In this document: piece after piece, positions 28,282 to 57,343 of the stretch | Position numbering within the stretch: position 1 is the stretch's first letter | Layout: every line of letters starts with the position of its first letter | DNA from: Candidatus Heimdallarchaeota archaeon | Lineage (GTDB): Archaea > Asgardarchaeota > Heimdallarchaeia > Heimdallarchaeales > Heimdallarchaeaceae | Assembly: GCA_030603365.1 (NCBI GenBank) | Contig: JAUVXV010000005.1 | Coordinates: 32,001-96,000 of the forward strand | Reading direction: 5' to 3' | DNA: 64,000 bases | Notes under the pieces: model-generated | What the model was told of the DNA's origin: nothing | Database searches by the model: none | Seen by the model: the letters and a program-made list of their open reading frames with translations, nothing else | Program-made: the position numbers and the translations under genes

Positions 28282-29007
28282 TTAATCTATCAAATGAATA
28301 TTCTTTGATTCCTCAATCTGGATATTGATTATTTCATTGTCTTTAACAAGTACTAGTAATCCTTCATTATTTATTCCATCACAATTGTATTTTTTTAACA
28401 TGTATCTATGCATTTTGCTAAGATTTAACAGGTTTGTATTGTATTCAGAAATTAGTTCGTTGACATGTTCGGATTTTAATTTTTCTAGGTATGCAAAAAG
28501 GGTCTCAGTTAATGATTCTATAAGAATACCCATATTGGAAATACATTTAATTTCTTCTGAAATACTTGTGGCTTTAACTCCCTCCACTTTATTCAGGTCT
28601 TCTTTTTTAATATTGATGTTCAAACCAATTCCAATAAGTAGATGATTTATCTGACTACTATGTATTTCAAGTAAGATACCACCTAATTTCTTGTTGTTTA
28701 GATAGATATCATTTGGCCATTTTATTTTGATGTCTAGTTTGTAAAGTTCTTTGAGTGTTTGTTGAATACTTAAAGCTGTTATGTAATGGATCATTCTCAT
28801 CTGCTTCTGGTTAATACTCTTTTCAAGAGCAAGAACATATGTTCCATAGAATCCACCTTTAGGAGAAACCCACTTAGAATTTTCTCTTCCTTTTCCTTCT
28901 AGTTGCTCATCTGCAATAATTAGAAAAGGTTCAGTGCTCTTTTTACGAAGATGATTTGCAACAATATCCATAGTAGAAGAAATACTATCATATCTAATAA
29001 TTCGCAT
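28282..29007 (-). CDS. birA: Biotin--[acetyl-CoA carboxylase] ligase (no N-terminal HTH)
   Basis: ISSTMD, ADEQLEGKGR..SKWVSPKGG, IKWPNDIY..KKLGGIL, GIGLNI; start 29007 preferred over 29061. Confidence 0.9.
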   Translation of the reverse strand: MRIIRYDSISSTMDIVANHLRKKSTEPFLIIADEQLEGKGRENSKWVSPKGGFYGTYVLALEKSINQKQMRMIHYITALSIQQTLKELYKLDIKIKWPNDIYLNNKKLGGILLEIHSSQINHLLIGIGLNINIKKEDLNKVEGVKATSISEEIKCISNMGILIESLTETLFAYLEKLKSEHVNELISEYNTNLLNLSKMHRYMLKKYNCDGINNEGLLVLVKDNEIINIQIEESKNIHLID

Positions 29008-29136
29008 TTTCTCTCTATTGAATATCACAAGAAACACTTTACACGAGCTGTTAATAGACATTATTACATCTTGAGGTTATAAAATTTATTTACTATACAA
29101 GGAAAATCTATTTTTATTGGAATTGTAATTATTTGT

Positions 29137-30717
29137 TTGATGGTCAAAAAAACAGAGTACTCATCAGAAGATGAGGAAAAGAACAAATATGATGATTTGG
29201 AGAATAAAAGGATTCAAAGTAGAGAAGGAGGGGGAAAGAAAAGAATTGAAAATCAACATAGTAAAGGAAAGCTCACTGCAAGAGAGAGAATCGAAATACT
29301 TGTTGATGAAGATTCATTCATTGAATTGGATTCCTTTGTTACTCATCAATCTGCCAAATTTGATATGTCTAAAAATCGACCGTATGGTGATGGTGTTGTA
29401 ACAGGTCATGCAAAAATCGCAGATAGACCTGTTTATCTTTATAGTCAAGATTTCACTGTTTTTGGTGGTAGCCTAGGTAGAGCCCAAGCTACGAAAATAT
29501 GCAAAGTTATGGACCTTGCAGTAAAAACTGGAACACCTATCATAGGTCTACTTGATTCAGGAGGAGCCAGAATTCAAGAAGGTGTAGCATCTTTAGCCGG
29601 TTATGGGGATATATTCTTTCGGAATACTTTAGCTTCAGGAGTAATTCCTCAAATCTCTGTTATATTGGGACCTTGTGCAGGTGGAGCAGTTTACTCACCT
29701 GCCTTAACAGATTTTGTACTTATGAATAAGGAAAATTCGTTTATGTTTGTTACTGGTCCAGAAGTAGTAAAAGCTGTCACAGGAGAGGAGATTTCTTTTT
29801 ATGAGTTGGGGGGAAGCGAGGTACATAGAAGTAAAACAGGAATATGTCATCTAGTGGGAGAAACTGAAGAAGAAACTTTAGGACTAGTTAGAAAATTATT
29901 ATCATACTTGCCTTCAAATAATCTAGATGATTCACCTACATATTCTCCCCTCCCCAAGGTTAACGAGCAGTTAATTCTTAGAGATTTAATTCCACAGAAA
30001 GATAATGAGCCCTACGATATGAAAAATATAATCTGTACGATAGTTGATTCTGATAGTTTTATTGAACTACAAGAAGACTGGGCTAAGAATATGATAATTG
30101 GTTTCTCAAGGATCAATGGTGATACTATTGGGATTATTGCTAACCAACCTATGTTTATTGGAGGTTCAATTGACGTTAATGCATCTGACAAAGCATCTAG
30201 ATTTATTCGTTTCTGTGATTCCTTTAACCTACCAATTTTAACATTTGTTGATGTTCCCGGATTTTTACCTGGAGTAAAACAAGAATATGAAGGTTTAATC
30301 AGACATGGTGCAAAATTGCTTTATGCCTATTCAGAAGCAACTGTTCCAAAAATTTCAATTATTATTCGAAAAGCATATGGTGGGGCTTACATAGTTATGA
30401 GTTCCAAGCATTTAGGGACAGACTTTAACTTAGCATGGCCAACAGCTGAAATTGCAGTTATGGGATCCGAAGGTGCTTGTAAAGTGCTTTACAAGAACAA
30501 ACTTAACGATGTAGAAAAACCAGAAGAGGTATTAGCAGAATTTGCTAAACAATTTAAAACAGAATTCGCAACACCTTATCAAGCAGCTGAATTGGGATAT
30601 ATCGACAAAGTGATTTTTCCAGAAGAAACTAGGAAAGAGATAATTCTCACTCTAAACATTCTTCAAAATAAAAGGGAACAGACACCAAAAAGGAAACATG
30701 GAGTGCCACCAGTTTAG
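29137..30717 (+). CDS. Acyl-CoA carboxylase carboxyltransferase subunit (PccB/AccD-like), copy 1
   Basis: GKLTARERI, GDGVVTG, DSGGARIQEG, GPCAGGAVY, VDVPGFLPG, RKAYGGAY, KRKHG. Confidence 0.93.
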   Translation: MMVKKTEYSSEDEEKNKYDDLENKRIQSREGGGKKRIENQHSKGKLTARERIEILVDEDSFIELDSFVTHQSAKFDMSKNRPYGDGVVTGHAKIADRPVYLYSQDFTVFGGSLGRAQATKICKVMDLAVKTGTPIIGLLDSGGARIQEGVASLAGYGDIFFRNTLASGVIPQISVILGPCAGGAVYSPALTDFVLMNKENSFMFVTGPEVVKAVTGEEISFYELGGSEVHRSKTGICHLVGETEEETLGLVRKLLSYLPSNNLDDSPTYSPLPKVNEQLILRDLIPQKDNEPYDMKNIICTIVDSDSFIELQEDWAKNMIIGFSRINGDTIGIIANQPMFIGGSIDVNASDKASRFIRFCDSFNLPILTFVDVPGFLPGVKQEYEGLIRHGAKLLYAYSEATVPKISIIIRKAYGGAYIVMSSKHLGTDFNLAWPTAEIAVMGSEGACKVLYKNKLNDVEKPEEVLAEFAKQFKTEFATPYQAAELGYIDKVIFPEETRKEIILTLNILQNKREQTPKRKHGVPPV

Positions 30718-30727
30718 CGAAAAATAA

Positions 30728-32239
30728 TTACCTTCGTTGTTGTTCAAGTCTACTTTGTTCTCTCCATTTACTCTTCTCTTTCTTAATTTTACTTAGTTTT
30801 TGCTCTTTATTCTTTTGTTTTGAATTGTGTGCTGTCTTTGCTTTAAGCATGGCAATGAGCTTTAACTTCTGATACTGGTTCATTAACTGATTAATCTTAT
30901 TTTCATTCAAGAAGTCACTAGTAATTTCTCTATTCAGGAATTCATGAGTCTGAATTATCGCTTTATGAAGATCTATGTTAGTTTTTATTCCTGAAATTGA
31001 CAATTCCTTTAATGCTATGAGAGATTTTTGTATAGTTTCTTCTCTATTTCTTCCTTTAACTATTAGTTTTCCAATTAGAGAATCATATTGGTTAGGAACT
31101 TGATAATTTGGATAGATAAACGTATCAAATCTAACATTATTATTCTCAGGGATACTTAGATTCGATATTCTACCCATCTGTGGATATAACCCTTTTAAAG
31201 GGTCCTCGGCATTGATTCTGAACTCAAAAGCATGCCCTTCAAATTTTATATCACTCTGATCAAACTGGAGTTCTTCATTGTTAGCAATTCTAAGTTGTTG
31301 AATAACAAGATCAATTCCCGTAATCATTTCAGTAATAGGGTGTTCAACTTGAATACGCGGGTTGATTTCATTGAAAAATAATTCATCATCCTTCCAGAGA
31401 AATTCAACAGTTCCAATATTGTTGTAAGATAGATTCTTTGCTAGCATACAAATTTTCTCTCCCAAATCATTTCTTTTTTCTGAGGATATAAATGAAGGAG
31501 CTTCTTCAATTATTTTTTGATGTGATCTTTGGATTGAACATTCTCTATCACCTAATTGAACAATTGCACCATGATTATCTGACATAAATTGCATCTCAAT
31601 ATGCCTGGGTTCTCGAATGTAGCTCTCTAGGAAAACTGCATTATTTCCAAAGTATTTCTTAGCAATAGATTGACATCCTGTTAAACTTTTTTCTAAATCT
31701 TCTGGTCTTTCAACAATTTCGATTCCAATCCCTCCACCCCCAAAAACTGCTTTAATTATTATTGGATAACCAAGAATTTCAGCTAATTTCTCAGCTTCAG
31801 AAACAGATTCAATTATATTAGATGAGCCTGGAATAACTTGAATACCAACATCTTCAGCCATTTTTTTAGCTTCAAGTTTGTTCCCTATTTTATACAACAC
31901 TGAAGAAGTAGGACCTATGAAAATCATTCCTTGTTTTTCAACTTCCTTTGCAAAATTTGCATTTTCGCTAAGAAAACCATAACCAGGATGAATTCCGTTA
32001 GCCTTGGACTTTAATGCAAAGCTAATGATTTTATCTATATTCAAATACGTTTCTTGAACAGAACCATTTCCCAAACAAAATGCTTCATCAGCCATCTTTA
32101 CATGAAGTGATGAAGAATCAATCTCTGAATAGATTGCGACAGTTTTTATTTTCAAAAGCCGGCATGCTCTTATTACCCTTACAGCTATTTCTCCACGGTT
32201 GGCTATAAGGATTTTATTAAGCATTTGAAAATATTTCAC
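30728..32239 (-). CDS. Biotin carboxylase, copy 1, with epsilon-like C-terminal tail
   Basis: ILIANRGEIA, IHPGYGFLSEN, RECSIQR, EINPRIQVEHP, RINAEDP, YDSLIGK. Confidence 0.92.
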   Translation of the reverse strand: MKYFQMLNKILIANRGEIAVRVIRACRLLKIKTVAIYSEIDSSSLHVKMADEAFCLGNGSVQETYLNIDKIISFALKSKANGIHPGYGFLSENANFAKEVEKQGMIFIGPTSSVLYKIGNKLEAKKMAEDVGIQVIPGSSNIIESVSEAEKLAEILGYPIIIKAVFGGGGIGIEIVERPEDLEKSLTGCQSIAKKYFGNNAVFLESYIREPRHIEMQFMSDNHGAIVQLGDRECSIQRSHQKIIEEAPSFISSEKRNDLGEKICMLAKNLSYNNIGTVEFLWKDDELFFNEINPRIQVEHPITEMITGIDLVIQQLRIANNEELQFDQSDIKFEGHAFEFRINAEDPLKGLYPQMGRISNLSIPENNNVRFDTFIYPNYQVPNQYDSLIGKLIVKGRNREETIQKSLIALKELSISGIKTNIDLHKAIIQTHEFLNREITSDFLNENKINQLMNQYQKLKLIAMLKAKTAHNSKQKNKEQKLSKIKKEKSKWREQSRLEQQRR

Positions 32240-32420: not shown

Positions 32421-34034
32421 ATGTCGTTTTTATTCGACTTAAATGATACTAGTTTAATGTATCAGAAACCTAAGAATTTAACTGAGATTCAAGAAAACAA
32501 TAAGTATACTACTCTACATGATAAGAGAAAAAAGAGTAGAGAAGGAGGAGGGGAAAAAAGGATTGAGAATCAACATCAGAAAGGAAAATTAACTGCCCGT
32601 GAAAGGATTGAACTTTTAGTTGATGAAAATTCTTTCAATGAGATTGATGCTTTTGTTACACATCAATCTACTAAATTTAACATGTCAAATAATCGACCTT
32701 TTGGAGATGGTGTTGTTACAGGTCATGCAAAAATCTCAGGTAGGACTGTCTATATTTATAGTCAAGATTTCACAATTTTTGGAGGAAGTTTGGGGAGAGC
32801 TCAAGCAACTAAAATTTGTAAAATAATGGATTTAGCAGTAAAAACAGGAAATCCAATAATAAGCTTACTTGATTCAGGTGGAGCTAGAATACAGGAAGGG
32901 GTTGCTTCTCTAGCGGGATACGGAGATATTTTCTATAGAAATACCCTAGCTTCTGGAGTAATTCCTCAAATTTCTGTTATACTTGGACCATGTGCTGGGG
33001 GAGCAGTTTACTCTCCAGCTTTAACAGATTTTGTTTTGATGAATAAAGAAAATTCCTTCATGTTTGTTACTGGTCCAGAAGTTGTAAAGGCCGTTACAGG
33101 AGAGGAGATCTCATTCTATGAATTGGGAGGAAGTGAAGTTCATAGTAATAAAACAGGATTATGTCATTTAGTTGGAGAAACCGAAGAAGAGACTTTAGAT
33201 CTTGTAAGGAAGCTATTTTCCTATCTGCCTTCTAACAATTTAAATGATGCTCCATTAGAAGCCAATTTACCAGAAGTAAATAATCAAAAAATTCTCAGAG
33301 ACCTGATCCCAGAAGAAGACAATGAACCTTATGATATGAAGGGTATTATTGGTGTTATCTTTGATTCTGATAGTTTTCTAGAATTGCAGGAAGATTGGGC
33401 AAAGAACATGGTAATTGGTTTCTCAAGGATAAATGGAAACACAGTTGGAATCATCGCAAATCAACCATTATTCTTGGGAGGAGCAATTGATTTTAACGCT
33501 GCAGACAAAGCATCCAGATTTATACGATTTTGTGATTCCTTTAACATACCAATATTGACTTTTGTTGATGTGCCTGGTTTCCTTCCAGGTATTAAACAAG
33601 AACATGAAGGAATTATCAGACACGGAGCAAAGCTTCTGTTTGCATATTCTGAAGCTACTGTTCCCAAAATCTCTGTTATAGTACGCAAAGCATATGGAGG
33701 GGCTTATATTGTGATGAGTTCCAAACATTTAGGAAATGATATTAATTTAGCTTGGCCAACAGCTGAAATAGCAGTTATGGGATCTGAGGGAGCATGCAGA
33801 ATACTCTATAGAGGTAAATTGAAAGAAGCTGAAAATCCAGATCAAGTTTTAGATGAATTTACCAACCAATTCAAAGAAGAATTTGCTAATCCATATCAAG
33901 CAGCTGAATTGGGTTACGTTGACAAAGTTGTTTTTCCAGAAGAGACTAGAAATGAAATTATCGTTTCTCTTAGTATTTTGAGAAATAAAAGAGAGCAAGC
34001 ACCAAAGAGGAAACATGGAATTTTTCCAGTTTAA
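32421..34034 (+). CDS. Acyl-CoA carboxylase carboxyltransferase subunit, copy 2
   Basis: Same motifs as copy 1 and highly similar to it; stop abuts the RBS of the megasynthase. Confidence 0.93.
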   Translation: MSFLFDLNDTSLMYQKPKNLTEIQENNKYTTLHDKRKKSREGGGEKRIENQHQKGKLTARERIELLVDENSFNEIDAFVTHQSTKFNMSNNRPFGDGVVTGHAKISGRTVYIYSQDFTIFGGSLGRAQATKICKIMDLAVKTGNPIISLLDSGGARIQEGVASLAGYGDIFYRNTLASGVIPQISVILGPCAGGAVYSPALTDFVLMNKENSFMFVTGPEVVKAVTGEEISFYELGGSEVHSNKTGLCHLVGETEEETLDLVRKLFSYLPSNNLNDAPLEANLPEVNNQKILRDLIPEEDNEPYDMKGIIGVIFDSDSFLELQEDWAKNMVIGFSRINGNTVGIIANQPLFLGGAIDFNAADKASRFIRFCDSFNIPILTFVDVPGFLPGIKQEHEGIIRHGAKLLFAYSEATVPKISVIVRKAYGGAYIVMSSKHLGNDINLAWPTAEIAVMGSEGACRILYRGKLKEAENPDQVLDEFTNQFKEEFANPYQAAELGYVDKVVFPEETRNEIIVSLSILRNKREQAPKRKHGIFPV

Positions 34035-34044
34035 GGTGATTTTA

Positions 34045-37000
34045 ATGAAAACAAAAAGACAAATCGAAAAAGAGTTAATACCAAATAAAATCATTTGGGG
34101 ATTTTCTCCAAAAGGTATAAGCAATCCACAATTATCTATAGAACTCTCTCTTAAGGGAGGCGTAGGACTTATAGATCTTGAAGGATTTGATGACCACTCA
34201 CTCACTAGTATCATAACTGATTGTAGTACTAAAATTCCAGAAGATAACCTCTGGGGAGTAAGAATCTCTGAAGCTTCTCACATAGAAGTTTTGAATAAAT
34301 TTGACTTCATTCCACTACTTATCTTACCGGATAAAGTAAATGAAGAGTTGTTAATCGGACTAACTTGCAATTATACCTGGATAGTAGCTGAAGTAAATAG
34401 CCTCTCTGAAGCTCAATCAAAAACTGATTGGGCTGACTTCTTTCTTGTAAAAGGATTTGAAGCAGGTGGAAAGATAGGAGAAACATCTTCCTTTATTCTA
34501 ATACAAGAATTCACTGAAGCTGGCTTTCCCTTCATTATTCAAGGTGGATTTGGAGTTTACAACATTATTAGCGCATTAATTGGAGGTGCATTAGGAGTTG
34601 TACTTGAAGAACAATTGTCTCTACTTCCAGAATGTCCTCTTACTAAAGAAACAAAAGATTATCTTTCATCTCTTGATGAAAATGATACCTATATTGTTGG
34701 AGAAAGTTTTGAATTAAAGTATAGACTAGCTGGAAAAATAGCAAATAAATGGATAAGAGATTTCAAAAAATTTGAAAAAAGCTTGACACGTGAAAGCGTT
34801 CAGGAATTATCACACAAAATAGATAAAATCTCAAAGAATTCGTTGTTCTTGTCGGATCCTGAAATTAAAAATTCTTTTCTTCCTCTTGGAGTAGGCTTGA
34901 GATTTGCTTCATTCATATTAGAAAAATTTGGAGACTTGTCTTCTTTTCTAAAAGGAATTGAGAACATAATTAACAGTCAAATGAGTAATCTTTCAGAACA
35001 TTGGCCATTTGCTGAGGATAGTGATTTTGCAAAGAGTCTTGGAATTAAATTACCCATAATTCAAGGACCTATGGCAAATATTACTGATAATGCTAAGTTT
35101 GCATCTAAGGTTTCGGAAGAAGGAGCTTTGCCTGTTCTAGCTTTTGGAGGATTATTAAAAGAAGAAACAGAAGAACTTTATCTAGAGTTTAATTCAAAGT
35201 TTCCAGTAGATGCTCCTTATGCAGGTGGAATTATAGGATTAGAAGTAATGAAAGAGAGACGAGAAGCTCATATTTCCTTGATAAAGAAAAACAACACACC
35301 TTATTGTCTTTTAGCTGCAGGCTCTATTCAACTAGCATCTAGAATCCAAAAAGAAGGTACTAAAGTCATTCTTCATACTCCTGCATTAGCACTTTTCAAA
35401 GAAGCGCATCAAAATGGAATTGAACATCTTATTTTAGAAGGAAGTGAATGTGGGGGACATATTGGCACTCTGACATCATTAACTCTCTGGGAGACGATTA
35501 TTCAGTTTATAGAGAAAGAGAAAACCAATCTTAAACAAAAGATAAATGTGATTTTTGCTGGAGGAATTAGTGATGCGAAAAGTTCTGCTATGCTAGCAGG
35601 AATGATAGCTTGTCATTCAGAGTACATTTCTCCAGGAATACAAATGGGAACAGCTTATTTGTTCACTGAAGAAATTGTTAAGAGTCGAGCTTTAACATCA
35701 CAATATCAAGAACATCTTCTTAATTCTTCTAATACAAAAGTGATAGGATCAACAGTAAATACTCGAGCTAGAGTAATTCCTTCAGATTTTGTAGAATCTA
35801 CATTAGAAGTAGAACTTGAGAGAATTAGTTCAGGATTATCGATACAAGATAGAAAGAAATTATATGAAAAAGATAACTTGGGAGCTCTACGAATTGCAGC
35901 AAAAGCTGAAGTGTGGAATGATAAACACATACCTGGTGGTGATACAACTCAGTTTGTAGCTGCTAGCAAAAAGATTCAGGATAGCAAAGGATGTTACATG
36001 GCTGGAGAACTTATTAGCTTGAAAAGAAACATATTGCGAATTAAAGATCTTCATACTGATGTTGTAAATTCAAGTAGAACATACGTTAAACATCAAATTA
36101 CAGCAATAGAAAAAATGCTCCCTCACGATACTATAAAAGAAGAATCTCACTCTGATACTATATCTTTACCAATTGAAAATAGAGTAGCAATAGTTGGGAT
36201 GGGCTGTATTTTTCCAGATGCTTTGAACATCAATCAATTTTGGTCAAATGTAACTGATAAGAAATATTCGATAACAGAAATTCCTGAATCAAGATGGAGT
36301 ACTGAATTATATTTCAACGAGGATAAAACAGCTCCAAATAAATCCTATTCCAAAATTGGTTCTTTTATAACAGATTATGAATTTGCTTCTATCAAGTATC
36401 GAATACCACCTAAAATCGCTGAGAGGATGGATGAAGTTCAAAAATGGGCTATAGATGCCGCAAAACAAGCTCTAGACGATGCTGGAATTCCTACCGATGG
36501 AAAATCAAGATTGCCTGTTTCTGTAATAGTAGGGAATTCATTAGGAGGAGAGAATCAACGAACTACAAACAAAGGACTTTTTGTTCCTGAATTTCTAAAA
36601 GAAATGAAGAAAAACGAAGTATTTCAAGAGCTTTCAAAAGAAAAACAGAAAGTTATGATAAAACAACTTGAAGTATTCTATACTGAAAAATATCCTCCAG
36701 TAACAGAAGATTCTATGCCAGGTGAATTATCTAATGTGATTTCTGGAAGAATTGCAAATGTTTTCAATTTAACTGGAAAATCTATGACAACGGATGCAGC
36801 TTGTGCTTCTAGTATAGCAGCAATTGATACTGCTGTTAATTCTCTCCTTTCAAGAGAATTTGATGTTGCTCTTTCAGGTGGAGCAGATAGATCAATGGAT
36901 ATTTCCACCTATATTAAATTCTCTAAAATAGGTGCATTATCTGCAACAGGAACAAGACCTTTTGACGAAAAAGCAGATGGTTTCGTTATGGGAGAAGGAG

Positions 37001-40000
37001 CAGGTTTTGTTGTTCTTAAACGTCTAGAAGATGCAATTAAAGATGGAAATAAAATTTATGCTGTTATTGCTTCAATCGGATCTTCTTCTGATGGTAAAGG
37101 TAAAGCAATTACCGCTCCCAACCCAGAAGGACAAAAACAAGCTATTCAAATGGCTATGAGAAAGGCACATATTAATACAAATGAGGTCGATTATATCGAA
37201 GCTCATGGGACTTCTACTATTGTCGGTGATGCTGTTGAATTAAAAGTTTTGGAAGAAGTTTTTGAAAACCGTAAAAGAGAACAGAAAATTGCTGTAAGCT
37301 CTATAAAAAGCCAAATTGGACATCTTAAGAGTGCGGCTGGAATAGCTTCAATAATCAAAACATCTTTGTCTCTTCATCACAAAATTCTTCCTCCTTCAGT
37401 TAATGTGGAAAAACTGAATCCAAAAATAAATTGGAAAGAATCTCGATTGAAAGTAATCACCGAAACAGAGGATTGGAATCTTTCCAATAACGAAGTAGGT
37501 AGAGCTGGAGTATCTGCATTTGGTTTTGGCGGAACCAATTATCATGCGATTTTAGAAGAATTCAATCCTGAAAAAATCCTTTATGAAGAGAAACCCAAAC
37601 ATATTTCTTCAGTTCTACAAGAGGATGATACTGTTCAAGAACAAATTTCTCTTCAAAGTATTCTTCCTAAGCTTTGTTACATGTTTACTGGTCAAGGTAG
37701 CCAATATCTAGGCATGGCTAAACAACTCTATGAGAATTCTGATATAGTAAAGAGATTTTTCGAAAAAGCTGAAAAAATTTGGTACAATTACTATACTTAT
37801 AGCTTCAAGGAAATTGTATTTGGTTCAGAAAAATTGTCAGTAGAATCAAATAAGAAGAGATTAACCGATACAAAGTTTACTCAACCTACCATCTTTGTTG
37901 TAGATGTAGCAATAGCTAATCTCTTAGCAGAAGAGGGGATTGAACCGGACATTGTTGCAGGACACAGTTTGGGAGAATATGCTGCTTTGGTTATTGCTGG
38001 AGTTCTATCTTTTGAGGATGGATTAAGGGCAGTTATTGAACGGGGGAGATCTATGAGCAGAGCTGGGAATTCAGTTCCTGGTGCTATGGTAGCAATTCTT
38101 GCTCCTATAGATAAAGTAACAGAGATTGTCAAGGAAGTAAAAAATAACTATGTTACTGTAGCCAATTACAACTCTAAAAATCAAACTGTAGTATCTGGAG
38201 AAATAGAAGGTATTGAGCAGATCTTAGAAATCTCAAAGAAGAAGGGAATTACAGCAAAGAGACTGAATGTATCTACTGCATTCCATTCAAAGATTGTAAA
38301 ATCAGTTGAGGAAGAGATGGAAAAGGTTCTTGCAAGAATAGAATTCAAAAATCCACGAATACCTGTATATAGCAATGCTACTGGAAAAGCATACCCTTCA
38401 GAGCCAGAACAGATGAGAAATCTACTAGTTGAACAGGTCAGCTCTTCTGTTTTATGGGTAGATGAAATTCAGAATATTTACAATGCTGGTGCTAGATATT
38501 ATGTTGAGATAGGTCCAAAGAAAGCCTTATTCCATTTTGCTAAGGATATCTTAAAGGAGAAAACTGACATTTCAACTTTCATTACACTATTACCTAAAGA
38601 AGATGAGATTGATACAATTCAATCAACCTTGAATCAACTTAGTCAATTTGTTGGTTTTGTTTCATCTTCAGATTCTAGTACCCAAACCAAGGAAACAAGC
38701 TTAAATATAGCAACTAAATCTATAGATAGAATAGTTCTATCATCGGATAATGATTTTCAAAATTTTGTGAAAAATAATAGCAAGTATCTTGAGAATATCT
38801 TGAAAGCAGGGCACGAACTTTATTCAACATATTTAGGAGAAGAAAGAAAATCAGAAAAGTCTCATTCACACTTCGGGATTGACCATCACTTGATTGGTGT
38901 GACAGGAGTAGGAATTGGTCTTCCAGGTAAACAGAGGAATGTTTTCGATGATGAAAATATCGATTCAATCTTAGCTGGGGAGAATTTCATTGATTCTATC
39001 GCTCAGGAAATTAAACAAGACATTCTAGATAAGAATATCAACCGCTTAGTTAAATCTCCTGATGGATCAGCTTCCTTCGAGGAAATAGATGATCTAACTA
39101 AGGTAATTAGCCTAGCAGGACAGATAGGTAAATTTGATCCAGTTGGAGATTTTGGAATAAACGAAAAGTTTCTGAATTCTCTTGACATAACCTTCCAGTT
39201 AGCTATTTGTGCAGGATTAGATGCTTTGACTGATGCAGGAATACCTTTAGTCAAATCTTCATTTACGACTTCAACAGGAAAAGTACTGGAAGGTGAATGG
39301 GCTTTACCTGAATCTCTTCAAGAAGAGACAGGGATAATATTTGCTTCAGCATTTCCAGGTTATGATAATCTAATTAAAGAAATTCAAGAACATAAAAACC
39401 AAGGTGATGATAGGAAATTTAGCAGAAACTTTCTGTTTAAGATTCTTTCATTGGGACATGCTCAATTTGCTCAACTCATCAAAGCAAAAGGACCAAATAC
39501 CCAAATTAATGCTGCATGTGCATCTACTACTCAAGCAATAGGAATCGCGGAGGATTGGATACGTACAGGACGTTGTAATCGAGTAATAGTAATTGCAGCT
39601 GATGATGCCTCAAGTGAAAATCTTCTGCCTTGGATAGGTTCAGGATTTTTAGTTGCAGGAGGTGTTACAACTCAAGATAAAGTCGAAAATGCTGCATTAC
39701 CATTTGGTAAAGATAGACACGGATTAATCATAGGTTCAGCTGCAGCTTCTCTAGTACTTGAGAGTGAAGAAGCATATAATAAAAGAGGAGTAAAACCAAT
39801 AGTAGATCTAATTGGTTCTACTTTTGTAAACAGTGGATTTCATGGTTCAAGGTTGGATGTTCAACATATCTCTCATGTTTTCCAATCTTTTGTTGAGAAG
39901 ATAGAAAAGCAATATAACATTTCAAGAAAAGAGCTAGCAGAAGATGGAATGTTTGTTTCTCATGAAACTTATACTCCTGCTAGAGGAGGAAGTGCAGAAT

Positions 40001-43000
40001 CAGAGATAGAAGCACTCAAAAGAGTGTTTGGGAAGGATTCAAGTAAGATTACTATTGTTAACACAAAGGGTTTCACAGGACATTCAATGGGAGCTGGAAT
40101 AGAAGAGTGTATTGCAATAAAATCTATAGAAAAAGGAAAAATTCCCCCTATTGCTAACATGGACAAAATAGATCCGATTTTCTCTGAGTTGAACTTTTCC
40201 AAAGGTGAAAATCGACGCGTAAAATATGCTATAAGATTAGCTGCAGGATTTGGCTCTCAGATAGCTTTTACTGCTTTTAGACTTAATACATATGAAGATA
40301 GATATGATTTAATTCTTCATGAAGAATGGTTAAATCAACTAGGAGGAGATATGAGAAGTACTTTTCTGGATGGTCGAGTTTTGAAGCTTAGAACAAGATC
40401 TAGACAAGAACAAGTATCTCATGTTGCATCAACAACATCTATTGTTCAAGAAACAGTGGTATTCAAAGAAATTCTCCCTGGTGTGATTTCAATTATTTCT
40501 GAAATAACTGGTTATGAAGCCAATCTGATTGAAGCTGAGATGCACCTTGAAGAGGATCTGGGAATAGATACTGTAAAACAAGCCGAGATTTTTGGTATTG
40601 TTCGAGAAAAATGGGGTTTAGATTTAGACGAAACAGTAAGTCTTGTTGAATTTACATCACCACAAAAAATAGCTGAGTATATTCAAAGTAATATGAAAGG
40701 TGTGAATGATATTGAAACAGCTGTTTCACAAGTCAAAGGTGGTCAGTTTGAGGATATATCCTTTAAGATTAGAGAAGTAGTATCTGAAACAACAGGATAT
40801 GAACAAGATTTAATTGAATACGATATGGATCTTGAAGAAGATCTGGGAATAGACACTATCAAACAAGCAGAGATTTTCGGTGACATAAGAGAAATATTTG
40901 ATTTGCCAGTTGATGAGTCAGTGAGTTTAGCTGAATTCAGGTCAATAAATGACATTGCGAAATATGTGTCTCAGTCTATTGGAGCTGAACAAAAAATCAT
41001 TACAGAGAGCTCTGATGATCAAAAACAAAAACAAATTACAGCTGACAAAGTTGAAGATGAAAAGAGCCTTGTTCGTATTGACAATCTAATTACAGTACCA
41101 GTTCCTTTGAATAAAAAAGATGCTGAGAAAATTACTCTAAAAGATATTTCTTCATTAGTAGTCAACATAAATTCAGATTTGCGGAACAGCTTAACGGAAA
41201 CATTGGTTGAGAAAAAGGCTAAATTTGTTGAACATAATTTACTAAAAGATGAAATTTCTTCAATACCAGAAAAGGAATTTGACCTCTTCATTTTAGTTCT
41301 CCCAGGTGTAAAATCAGAACCTGGTTATATCGACCAAGAGATTTACAGAAAACTTTTTTCGCTATTTCAATCTCTTGAATTGCAGAAAGGAAATAGGATT
41401 GTCGCATTATCTGAAGAGAGTTTCTTTGGTCTTAAAGAAGGTGCTAATCCAATATCTGGAGGAATATCAGGATTTGTGAAAACCTTAGGTTTAGAGTTTG
41501 ATATGCCCTATAAGCACATTTATTCTGAAAACATCGCTGATATAATTCAAGAGCTTGAATACTGGGATGGTATAATAGAAATTGCATTTGATAAAAAAGG
41601 ACGTTTCACTCTTGCTAATCTTGATATTAGTAATTATCTTACTCAGTCATCAAAAATTGATATAGAGAAAGATGATCTGATTTTAGTAACTGGAGGTGGA
41701 CGAGGTATCACCTTCAAATGCATTGAAGCTTTAAGTACAATAGTAAAATCTAAAGTTGCTATAATTGGAATTGAGGACATCTCTGATATTAATTCTGATA
41801 TGCTTCAATTTTCCGATGATGATTTAGAACTAAGAAAACAACAACTTATCAAAGAATTAAAAGAATCAGAAGAGAAAGTTACACCTGTTCTCATAGATAA
41901 ACACTGGAACAGATTCCTTTTCGGCTTAGAAGTTACTCGCAACATTGAAAAACTAAGAAAAATGAGAATTCAGGCAGAATATAGACGCGTAGATGTAACT
42001 AATAAAGAAGCTGTTGAGAAAACAATCAGAGAAATTGAAGACCACTTCCAAACATCTGTTAGTCATATCATACATGGTGCTGGTCTAGAAGAATCAAAAT
42101 CTTTCAAGAAGAAGAAAATAGATTTTTCCAATCTTATAGTTTCTGTGAAGGTTGAAGGAATTTGGAACGTTCTCAATTCTGTTAACACTAAGAAACTAAA
42201 ACGAGTTGTATGTTTCACTTCAATTGCTGGTCGGTATGGTAACAGAGGTCAAGTAGACTATTCTTTTGCAAATGGTTACTTATCTAGACTATGTTGGAAG
42301 CTAAATCAACAGGGTGTATCTGCACTTGCTTGCGATTGGTCTGCCTGGGGAGGAGTTGGAATGGCAACAAGAGGCTCTATAATGGACATATTAACATCTC
42401 AAGGGATTAATCCTATACCTTTACAAGACGGGACTGAAACTTTTGTTAAGCTCTTTCTAAACACAATCGGAAATGAAGTTGTGGTTTCTTGCGGTCTTGG
42501 TCCATTTGAGCAATTATCTAACATCCAATCGGAGATTAAAGAAAAGAAATATCCTATGATCAATAGAATTGAATATTCTGAATCAAAATTCTATGCAAGA
42601 AAGTCAATATCTTCTTCAACTGATCTTTACTTAAACGATCATCAAATTCAACAAACACCTATATTTCCAGGAGTTATGGGGTTGGAAATGTTTGCTGAAA
42701 CATTTGAACTAGTCTCAGCACAGAAACCTGTTAGTTTCACAAAAGTAGAATTCAATACAGCACTGAAGATTCAACAATCACAAGCTAAAGAAGTTTACGT
42801 TGAATATAAATCAGATTTAGGAGAAATGCGGTTAAAATCTGATTTTGTTGCAAAAATCGAACCAAGCAAAACAAGAGAAATAGAACACTTTAGAGTGAAT
42901 GTAGATACTTTATCAAAAAGAAGGAAATCAAAGAAATCTAAACATATAATTAGAGAATCGAAGATTAATCTGCTCACAAAAGAAGATATTTATTCATTCT

Positions 43001-56092: not shown

Positions 56093-57343
56093 ATGGCTAG
56101 AGAAGTGTGGAGGACAGAAGTGATGGAAACTACTCCCCACACTGCACTCGACCTTCTCTGTCATCAAACCAAGAACCTCTATAATAGGGCAATGTATGTA
56201 TTCAAACAACATTATACTCAAACAAAACATTGGCTGTCGTATCAGCAATTAAACAGGCAGCTGAAACAAGAGCCGTGCTACAGAATCTTGCCAGTTCATA
56301 CAGCCCAACACACCCTCAAGCTCCTCTCCCGCAACTGGAATGGATTTGGGAGGGCAATTAGGGAATTTCACAGCAATCCTCAAGCATTCCTTGGTAAACC
56401 CCGTCCTCCAGGATATAGGCCGAAGAATGGCCAACAAGTAGCGATTTTTACTAACCAACAAGCTAAGTTAAGGGATAATAGGTTACTTTTACCCAAGAAA
56501 GTTCCGTTTTCTATCAAAACTCGCTTACCAGACCATGTGAAACTTAAGGAAGTGCGTGTTGTCCCTCGAGGGGTAGGGTATACAATCGAGCTAGTTTATA
56601 GTAAGCTTGTTCCAGAAGTAGAGGTGCAAGGAACAAACATAGGAGCGATAGACCTAGGAGTCCACAACCTTCTCACTTATGTAGACAACATCCAGGGAAG
56701 ACCGATTGTTGTCAAGGATGAAGGAAAAGGGATCAAATCTACTATCAGGTACTATTTGAAAGAAATCAAGAAATTGCAAAACAAGTATGCACAGCAACAA
56801 AGATTAGCATTGAAACAACAGAACAGATTAGAGTACGGACAACGATTTCGCCACCTTCGTGAAATAAAACGTAGACTAGTGAAAGAGTGGATCCATCAGA
56901 TGAGTAGGAAGTTTGTCCAGCTTTGGGTACAAACAGGAATCCAACACGTATATATAGGATATAACCCCCTCTGGAAACAACAAGTGAAGTTAAGGAAGAA
57001 GACCACCCAGATGTTTGTTATCCTCCCGTTTGACCGATTTATCCACGCGCTCAAATACAAGGCTGAAGAGCATGGAATCATTGTTGAAAGGGTAGAAGAA
57101 TCTTACACTTCCAAGTGTAGTTTTCTAGATAATGAATCCCCTCAAAAGCATTCTACTTACCAAGGACGAAGACCCAAACGAGGGTTGTTCAAATCTGCAA
57201 CAGGCGTACTCATCAATGCTGATGTGAATGGGGCATACAATATTTTACTCAAAGGCGATCCGCAAGCACTACCTTCTTGTAGTGTGGGCGGGGTAGGAGG
57301 ATATGTGATTTATCCGCTTAGATGGAGTTTCGAGCTTTATTAA
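56093..57343 (+). mobile_element. tnpB: TnpB RNA-guided nuclease gene of a non-autonomous IS200/IS605/IS607-type element
   Basis: KNLYNRA, PRPPGY, GAIDLGVHNL (RuvC-I), YIGYN..WKQ, LKYKAEEHGI, EESYTSK, NADVNGAYNI (RuvC-III); visibly higher GC than flanks; no tnpA; element ends not resolved. Confidence 0.9.

What the first reader, a model, noticed from the sequence alone, without database searches (positions are those of the whole stretch)
40468..40983. Both ACP domains have Thr instead of the phosphopantetheine-accepting Ser
Seen: EEDLGIDTVKQAEIF (ACT at 40570) and EEDLGIDTIKQAEIF (ACT at 40855). Established: carrier proteins are modified on the Ser of (L)GxDS. The same residue in two otherwise diverged copies, inside a gene with intact catalytic motifs, argues against random decay. 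I saw no Ser-type ACP elsewhere in the window. Inference: the fused PPTase may modify Thr (orthogonal carrier chemistry), or the enzyme uses CoA-bound intermediates or a trans ACP. I recall similar GIDT motifs in uncharacterised bacterial PKSs but cannot verify this.
Basis: partly seen in the sequence, partly recalled or inferred. Interest (0 to 1): 0.85.

Follow-up and report, generated by a model that had tools for sequence, protein, structure and literature searches.

The report
Threonine-site carrier domains, Asgard megasynthase
Both carrier domains of a giant fatty-acid/polyketide-type enzyme in an Asgard archaeon have threonine where studied carrier proteins have the serine that holds the phosphopantetheine arm; this is the rule across a large bacterial and archaeal enzyme family, so a threonine-linked cofactor, which I could not find described, is likely but has not been measured.

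Summary
Confirmed. T2186 (ACT, 40570) and T2281 (ACT, 40855) occupy the phosphopantetheine-serine position of two true ACP domains in an intact 3371-aa ER-ER-KS-AT-KS-ACP2-KR-DH-PPTase synthase of a Heimdall-group Asgard archaeon. This is a family trait, not decay. Among 117 homologues picked by the second KS alone, 112 carry Thr and no Ser, 5 are mixed and none is Ser-only. All four Thr codons occur. In intact motifs the only other residue is Ser, in several separate lineages nested among Thr proteins, sometimes within one polypeptide. No Ser-type ACP or second PPTase was found in this genome (89% complete); a stand-alone ACP-like protein lacks the acceptor. KS, AT and PPTase catalytic residues are near-invariant. 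A complex model puts T2281 against the PPTase catalytic Glu, but like complexes are solved. Best reading (about 0.78): the dedicated PPTase loads phosphopantetheine on Thr; unmeasured. E. coli ACP S36T cannot be modified. Fusion is not required, and strict orthogonality is doubtful. The family matches Shulse and Allen's 'Type R' synthases, whose description does not mention Thr. The scan found this before on other DNA (at least 8 genomes).

The parts
40474..40710 (+). ACP domain 1, acceptor position T2186 (codon 40570-40572)
40759..40995 (+). ACP domain 2, acceptor position T2281 (codon 40855-40857)
34015..44130 (+). 3371-aa iterative type I synthase (ER-like, ER, KS1, AT, KS2, ACP x2, KR, DH, PPTase), uninterrupted
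34057..36084 (+). Two FabK/NMO-like FMN enoyl-reductase units; only the second has the catalytic His (H482, 75/75 homologues)
36178..37584 (+). KS1, PfaA-like, C930/H1064/H1103 (206/206 homologues)
37672..38604 (+). Acyltransferase, S1318/R1343/H1424 invariant; malonyl-type by motif (inference)
38902..40329 (+). KS2, FabF-like, intact C1835/H1983/H2023 (205, 206, 205 of 206); family marker
41632..43389 (+). KR (Y2749) and double-hotdog DH (H2876, E3043)
43432..44127 (+). Fused Sfp-type PPTase, the only one found in the genome; H3245, D3262, E3264, W3297, K3300, E3301 intact
44127..44888 (+). Overlapping alpha/beta hydrolase (nucleophile-elbow Ser motif), candidate release enzyme
32421..34034 (+). 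Acyl-CoA carboxylase carboxyltransferase
44889..46884 (-). Biotin carboxyl carrier protein and biotin carboxylase
28282..32239 (.). Biotin ligase plus duplicate carboxyltransferase and biotin carboxylase

Best explanation
The two domains are working acyl carriers whose 4'-phosphopantetheine arm is joined to a threonine hydroxyl. The fused Sfp-type PPTase binds CoA and Mg, docks ACP helix II and transfers the arm to T2186/T2281. The neighbouring acyl-CoA carboxylase supplies malonyl-type extender, AT loads it on the arm, KS1 and KS2 condense, KR/DH/ER reduce fully, and the overlapping hydrolase probably releases a saturated acyl product of unknown structure. Shown: position and conservation of the Thr, ACP fold, intact catalytic residues, no alternative carrier found. 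Inferred: the Thr-phosphodiester itself, a role for the coupled Gln at +3, substrate and product.
For: (a) Unbiased tally: in 120 homologues selected by KS2, ACP acceptor column Thr 329, Ser 7; 112 proteins with Thr and no Ser, 5 mixed, 0 Ser-only, 3 truncated before an ACP. Among 50%-identity representatives, KS2-bearing proteins are 48 Thr: 1 Ser, proteins without KS2 are 21 Ser: 3 Thr. (b) In domains with an intact surrounding motif only Thr (684) and Ser (7, outside one PfaA-like protein) occur, although Ala, Pro, Ile, Asn, Lys, Arg and Met are equally one base away; other residues appear only in degenerate extra repeats. (c) Ser cases sit at four separate places of a KS2 tree, each among Thr proteins (same picture on a KS1 tree); the family-level case uses AGT, one base from ACT. 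(d) No other conserved Ser or Cys exists in the domain (max Ser 26%). (e) KS Cys, AT Ser and PPTase Mg ligands, all of which serve a thiol arm, are near-invariant. (f) Only ACPs with an acceptor and only PPTase found in this genome; likewise no other ACP in a 10-contig Thr-only relative. (g) Complex model with CoA and Mg: score 0.78, best of 3 controls 0.24, mark reached by 58 of 80 solved and 2 of 110 mismatched pairs, runs agree in 96% of contacts, partner pLDDT 84+; T2281 touches E3301, the Sfp E151 equivalent. Like complexes are solved, so this shows likeness only.
Against: No measurement exists. [quoted passage not shown] The PPTase core is canonical and I found no clear Thr pocket; family-typical residues (E3267, R3269, S3272, F3273, T3294) are only correlates against a small, uncharacterised outgroup. 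The genome is 89% complete. Homologues are related, so counts are not independent events. No product is known.
Confidence: 0.78

Rival explanations
1. The Thr domains stay apo (structural or docking role) and the enzyme works on CoA thioesters or on a separate Ser-type ACP loaded by the fused PPTase.
For: S36T blocks modification in E. coli. ACP-independent, CoA-based fatty acid synthesis exists in archaea (10.1101/2024.07.05.601840). A stand-alone ACP-fold gene exists in this genome and 24/30 family genomes. Bacterial hosts have their own AcpP.
Against: The stand-alone protein has K/E/N/D at the acceptor in 24 of 25 sequences; the 25th is a distant canonical ACP in another genus. A PPTase would have no substrate, yet it is kept with intact ligands in 106/106 fusions. 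A CoA-based route needs no AT. An inert site would not be limited to Thr or Ser.
Confidence: 0.1
2. The Thr hydroxyl is functional but carries something other than plain phosphopantetheine (a direct O-acyl ester or another CoA-derived group).
For: It fits the Thr/Ser-only spectrum and avoids the known failure of canonical PPTases on Thr.
Against: The partner is a canonical Sfp-type PPTase; Cys-His-His KS chemistry needs thioesters (established knowledge); no other modifying enzyme is conserved in the loci examined.
Confidence: 0.07
3. Decay, assembly error or recoding: the carrier sites are dead, or Thr codons are read as Ser.
For: Some homologues carry degenerate extra ACP repeats.
Against: Fixed in hundreds of proteins from archaea and several bacterial phyla, four synonymous codons, intact ORF and conserved operon.
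Confidence: 0.02

Closest known systems
'Type R' secondary lipid synthase cluster (Shulse and Allen 2011, PMC3098273; Koribacter, Solibacter, Elusimicrobium, Roseiflexus)
   Same: One pfaA homologue with KS-MAT-second KS-like domain-tandem ACP-KR, then a PPTase, often beside acetyl-CoA carboxylase genes; same layout here and in bacterial homologues.
   Different: Here ER units and PPTase are fused, a DH is present, two ACPs instead of 3-6, archaeal host. The paper calls the second domain a CLF, but it keeps Cys-His-His in about 205/206 homologues. The paper does not contain the word threonine; product uncharacterised.
Tandem ACPs of PfaA PUFA synthase (NCBIfam TIGR02813) with PfaE
   Same: Closest ACP sequence type; KS1 and AT are homologous.
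   Different: PfaA-like ACPs have Ser with Arg/Lys at +3 (92%); this family has Thr with Gln at +3 (98%). Score 884 is below the family cut-off 1010.
Sfp-TycC3 PCP complex (PDB 4MRT) and AcpS-ACP (1F80)
   Same: Same PPTase catalytic residues and helix-II docking in the model.
   Different: Acceptor is Ser in these; E. coli ACP S36T is not modified.
Self-priming megasynthases with a fused PPT (fungal FAS alpha chain; enediyne PKSE from own knowledge)
   Same: C-terminal PPTase in the same chain; fungal FAS PPT domains are hit by the family PPTase profile.
   Different: Ser acceptors (own knowledge), different domain order, one KS.

Membership tests
Acyl carrier protein (PF00550) | ACP helical-bundle fold | tested here: met
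Acyl carrier protein (PF00550) | Conserved Ser at the start of helix II | tested here: not met
   Thr in both domains; filed as an ACP-fold Thr variant, not a canonical ACP
Acyl carrier protein (PF00550) | Covalent 4'-phosphopantetheine | not testable with these tools
   needs mass spectrometry
Sfp-type PPTase | Two-lobed monomer with CoA-binding His, Asp/Glu Mg ligands and Trp-x-x-Lys-Glu | tested here: met
Type R secondary lipid synthase | Single pfaA homologue ordered KS-MAT-(KS-like)-ACPn-KR | tested here: met
   ACP count is 2 here, 3-6 in the paper's five members
Type R secondary lipid synthase | PPTase directly downstream, often with carboxylase genes | tested here: met
   fused here; adjacent in L051, L052, L054
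Type R secondary lipid synthase | Second domain is a non-catalytic CLF, as labelled in the paper | tested here: not met
   Cys-His-His intact here and in homologues; probably a mislabel in the paper, but its five proteins were not examined
Type R secondary lipid synthase | KS1 groups with the five named Type R proteins | not tested
   those proteins were not fetched; a Korobacteraceae and Chloroflexota homologues are among the hits
PUFA synthase PfaA (TIGR02813) | Score above curated cut-off; separate PfaB/C/D partners | tested here: not met
   883.8 vs 1010.1 bits; no other KS gene found in the genome

The most novel reading that the evidence does not exclude
A large family of two-KS megasynthases in bacteria, Thermoplasmatota and Asgard archaea uses threonine-linked phosphopantetheine installed by a co-adapted PPTase that housekeeping AcpS/Sfp cannot replace, giving a naturally insulated carrier/transferase pair and an ACP-dependent acyl-chain pathway in Asgard archaea.
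Probability: 0.5. Interest if true: 0.85.

Novelty: new variant of a known kind. Interest (0 to 1): 0.72.

Why it matters
Reviews state that all carrier proteins are modified on a conserved serine, and S-to-T is used as an inactivating mutation. A natural Thr-linked arm would break that rule, would mean that genome-mining rules can misjudge such domains as dead, and could give a carrier/PPTase pair insulated from host enzymes for labelling and pathway engineering. It also bears on the lipid divide: a 2024 preprint describes ACP and ACP synthase as absent from nearly all archaea, yet this synthase is in 23 of 26 well-assembled genomes of this Asgard order. The test is one small protein pair and one MS experiment, and cultured hosts exist (Desulfobacter latus, Desulforegula conservatrix, Nonomuraea gerenzanensis).

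Tried and rejected
Paper searches for the motif, for 'phosphopantetheinylated threonine', and for an Asgard type I PKS/FAS found nothing relevant; the library lacks most subscription papers, so this does not prove novelty. 'Threonine' mentions in PMC11744666 and PMC12391972 concern the +1 position, not the acceptor. No RNA holder listed. The genome-contig scan with a single protein returned only close Heimdall relatives. A first KS2 tree lost most rows through fragmentary extraction and was redone. The KS1 tree does not resolve whether Thr arose once (deep supports 0-0.15). Two Thr proteins with a different KS-KS-AT order (P0345, P0363) and one that lacks KS2 (P0299) show Thr is not strictly tied to KS2. 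A search for a diagnostic Thr pocket in the PPTase gave only correlates. The stand-alone ACP-like gene was rejected as trans carrier. An alternative acceptor residue was rejected: the other conserved Thr (end of helix I, after helix III) are also present in Ser-type relatives or far from the modelled active site.

Full report
Observation. The stretch lies in an uninterrupted 3371-aa ORF at 34015-44130 (+). Both GIDT motifs are present; the Thr codons are ACT at 40570 (T2186) and 40855 (T2281). The two repeats are 51% identical. They are ACP domains by Pfam and NCBIfam, the Thr aligns with the phosphopantetheine Ser of solved ACPs, and a confident model of ACP2 has it at the first position of helix II and matches solved ACPs at TM about 0.8.

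Host and locus. The closest homologues (81% identity over KS2) are from genomes labelled Ca. Heimdallarchaeota, and others from Heimdallarchaeaceae; neighbouring genes include archaeal Nre and a Rag/Arf-like GTPase, and gene GC (34.0%) matches the genome (33.3%). The protein reads ER-like, ER, KS1, AT, KS2, ACP, ACP, KR, DH, PPTase. It is flanked by a biotin ligase, carboxyltransferases, biotin carboxylases, a BCCP and an overlapping alpha/beta hydrolase, an arrangement kept in relatives. The ACP region was found in 44 of 61 related genomes. In a phylum sample it was in 30 of 161 genomes: 23 of 26 others in the same order, 3 of 15 elsewhere in the class, and 3 outside it. Named holders include the original Lokiarchaeum GC14_75 bin, Ca. 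Harpocratesius repetitus, Poseidoniales, Desulfobacter, Desulforegula, Ca. Leptofilum and Nonomuraea.

Thr is a family trait. Because an ACP query favours Thr hits, I also selected homologues by KS2 alone. Of 117 with an ACP, 112 carry Thr and no Ser, 5 are mixed and none is Ser-only (some of the five owe their Ser to degenerate repeats). In 50%-identity representatives, which include Ser-type PfaA-like proteins, KS2-bearing proteins are 48 Thr to 1 Ser, and proteins without KS2 are 21 Ser to 3 Thr. Thr codons in related genomes are ACT 23, ACA 23, ACC 5, ACG 1, so the amino acid is held while the codon drifts. These sequences are related, so the counts are not independent events.

The hydroxyl appears to be what is selected. 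In domains whose surrounding motif is intact, only Thr (684) and Ser (7) occur within the family, although seven other residues are one base change away. The Ser cases fall at four separate places in a KS2 tree, each nested among Thr proteins, and a KS1 tree agrees. Two single-contig genomes of the same family carry Ser-Thr-Ser domains with AGT codons in one chain; G030 has a single PPTase match. No other Ser or Cys is conserved in the domain. Thr travels with Gln at +3 (98% of 1078 domains), where PfaA-like ACPs have Arg or Lys (92% of 214); in 14 Ser-reverted domains Gln falls to 21%. This small, related set suggests, but does not show, that Gln+3 helps Thr to be modified.

The rest of the machine needs a thiol arm. 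KS1 Cys-His-His, AT Ser-Arg-His, KR Tyr, DH His and ER2 His are invariant in the 207-protein set; PPTase His, Asp, Lys and Glu are kept in all 104-106 fusions. KS2 is FabF-like and keeps Cys-His-His in about 205 of 206. The fused PPTase is the only one found in this genome, and most relatives have one, in the same ORF. Unfused bacterial versions have a PPTase gene next door in three of four loci fetched, with the fourth ending inside the carboxylase gene; Nonomuraea has a single recognisable Thr ACP with carboxylase and a PPTase-like ORF downstream.

Trans carrier tested. A weak PP-binding hit on contig C2 is a real 83-aa ACP-fold ORF (E 4e-12 to TIGR00517, below cut-off), found in 24 of 30 family genomes. 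Its acceptor position is Lys, Glu, Asn or Asp in 24 of 25 sequences, so it is not a canonical carrier. The assembly is 89% complete, so absence is not proven.

Complex model. PPTase plus ACP2 with CoA and Mg scored 0.78, best of 3 controls 0.24; the mark was reached by 58 of 80 solved and 2 of 110 mismatched pairs (only roughly applicable here); runs agree in at least 96% of contacts, partner pLDDT at least 84. T2281 touches E3301 (Sfp E151 equivalent), I2282 touches W3297 and E3264, and A2285 touches F3273, E3276 and A3277. F3273 lies in a segment typical of the family's PPTases, facing the small Ala at +4 where TycC3 PCP has Met49. Since Sfp-PCP and AcpS-ACP complexes are solved, the pass shows likeness, not chemistry.

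Against. E. coli ACP S36T cannot be modified and is non-functional (PMC3340395), and a review says the arm sits on a conserved serine in all carrier proteins (PMC8857579). Chemically, Mg-dependent transfer of phosphoesters to Thr is common (kinases, FMN transferases; own knowledge), so the barrier is steric and could be relieved by a co-adapted enzyme.

Mechanism. Most likely the cognate PPTase forms a Thr-O-phosphopantetheine, and the synthase then acts as a self-priming, fully reducing iterative enzyme fed by the adjacent carboxylase, with release by the hydrolase (0.78 for the Thr linkage; product unknown). The mixed proteins suggest the PPTase accepts both Ser and Thr, so any insulation would be one-way: host enzymes fail on Thr domains. 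In this archaeon no other PPTase was found, so insulation gives no obvious benefit here and the trait is probably inherited with the gene (inference).

Known and new. The architecture matches the 'Type R' clusters of Shulse and Allen (PMC3098273), whose text does not mention threonine and calls KS2 a CLF. A 2024 preprint describes ACP and ACP synthase as absent from nearly all archaea. I found no paper on a Thr-linked arm in the searchable library. Earlier agents of this scan reached the same reading on at least eight other genomes; those notes gave me the Type R and S36T leads, which I checked, and are not independent evidence. Verdict: real, a new variant of a known kind, directly testable; interest 0.72.

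Noticed in passing
L002:1375-1623 (G000:C2:76942-77190): Stand-alone ACP-fold ORF without the acceptor Ser, found in 24 of 30 family genomes; next to a luciferase-like oxidoreductase-type gene in the three loci read. Function unexplained.
   Followed up: partly
window 38902-40329: KS2 is FabF-like with an intact Cys-His-His triad across the family, so it is not the chain-length factor the Type R description assumed; two active KSs may split priming and elongation or join two chains.
   Followed up: partly
L051:4253-5908, L053:3484-5139, L054:4317-5933: Bacterial versions lacking the ER domain have an acyl-CoA dehydrogenase gene just upstream, while the ER-bearing Desulfobacter locus (L052) does not; it may stand in for the enoyl reductase.
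   Followed up: no
window 29137-32239: Duplicate carboxyltransferase and biotin carboxylase pair, seen also in G023 but not in most relatives' loci.
   Followed up: partly
L034, L036 (G030, G027): Sister genus with Ser-Thr-Ser ACPs in one chain, a natural internal control; G027 also has a second PPTase copy about 2.7 kb downstream and a shorter open frame (2729 aa).
   Followed up: partly
L080:786-2663: The all-Ser revertant P0086 has an ACP_syn_III-type gene and a hydrolase upstream instead of carboxylase genes.
   Followed up: no
L079 (G026:C585): A canonical Ser-type, bacterial-like ACP on a short contig of one family genome; could be contamination or transfer.
   Followed up: no
P0019, P0022, P0047, P0078, P0166-P0171: Some homologues carry degenerate ACP repeats with no acceptor between intact Thr repeats.
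   Followed up: no
window 56093-57343: TnpB/Cas12f-like (IS605 OrfB) gene.
   Followed up: no
window 49639-50223: Rag/Gtr1-like small GTPase, a eukaryote-like protein typical of Asgard archaea.
   Followed up: no
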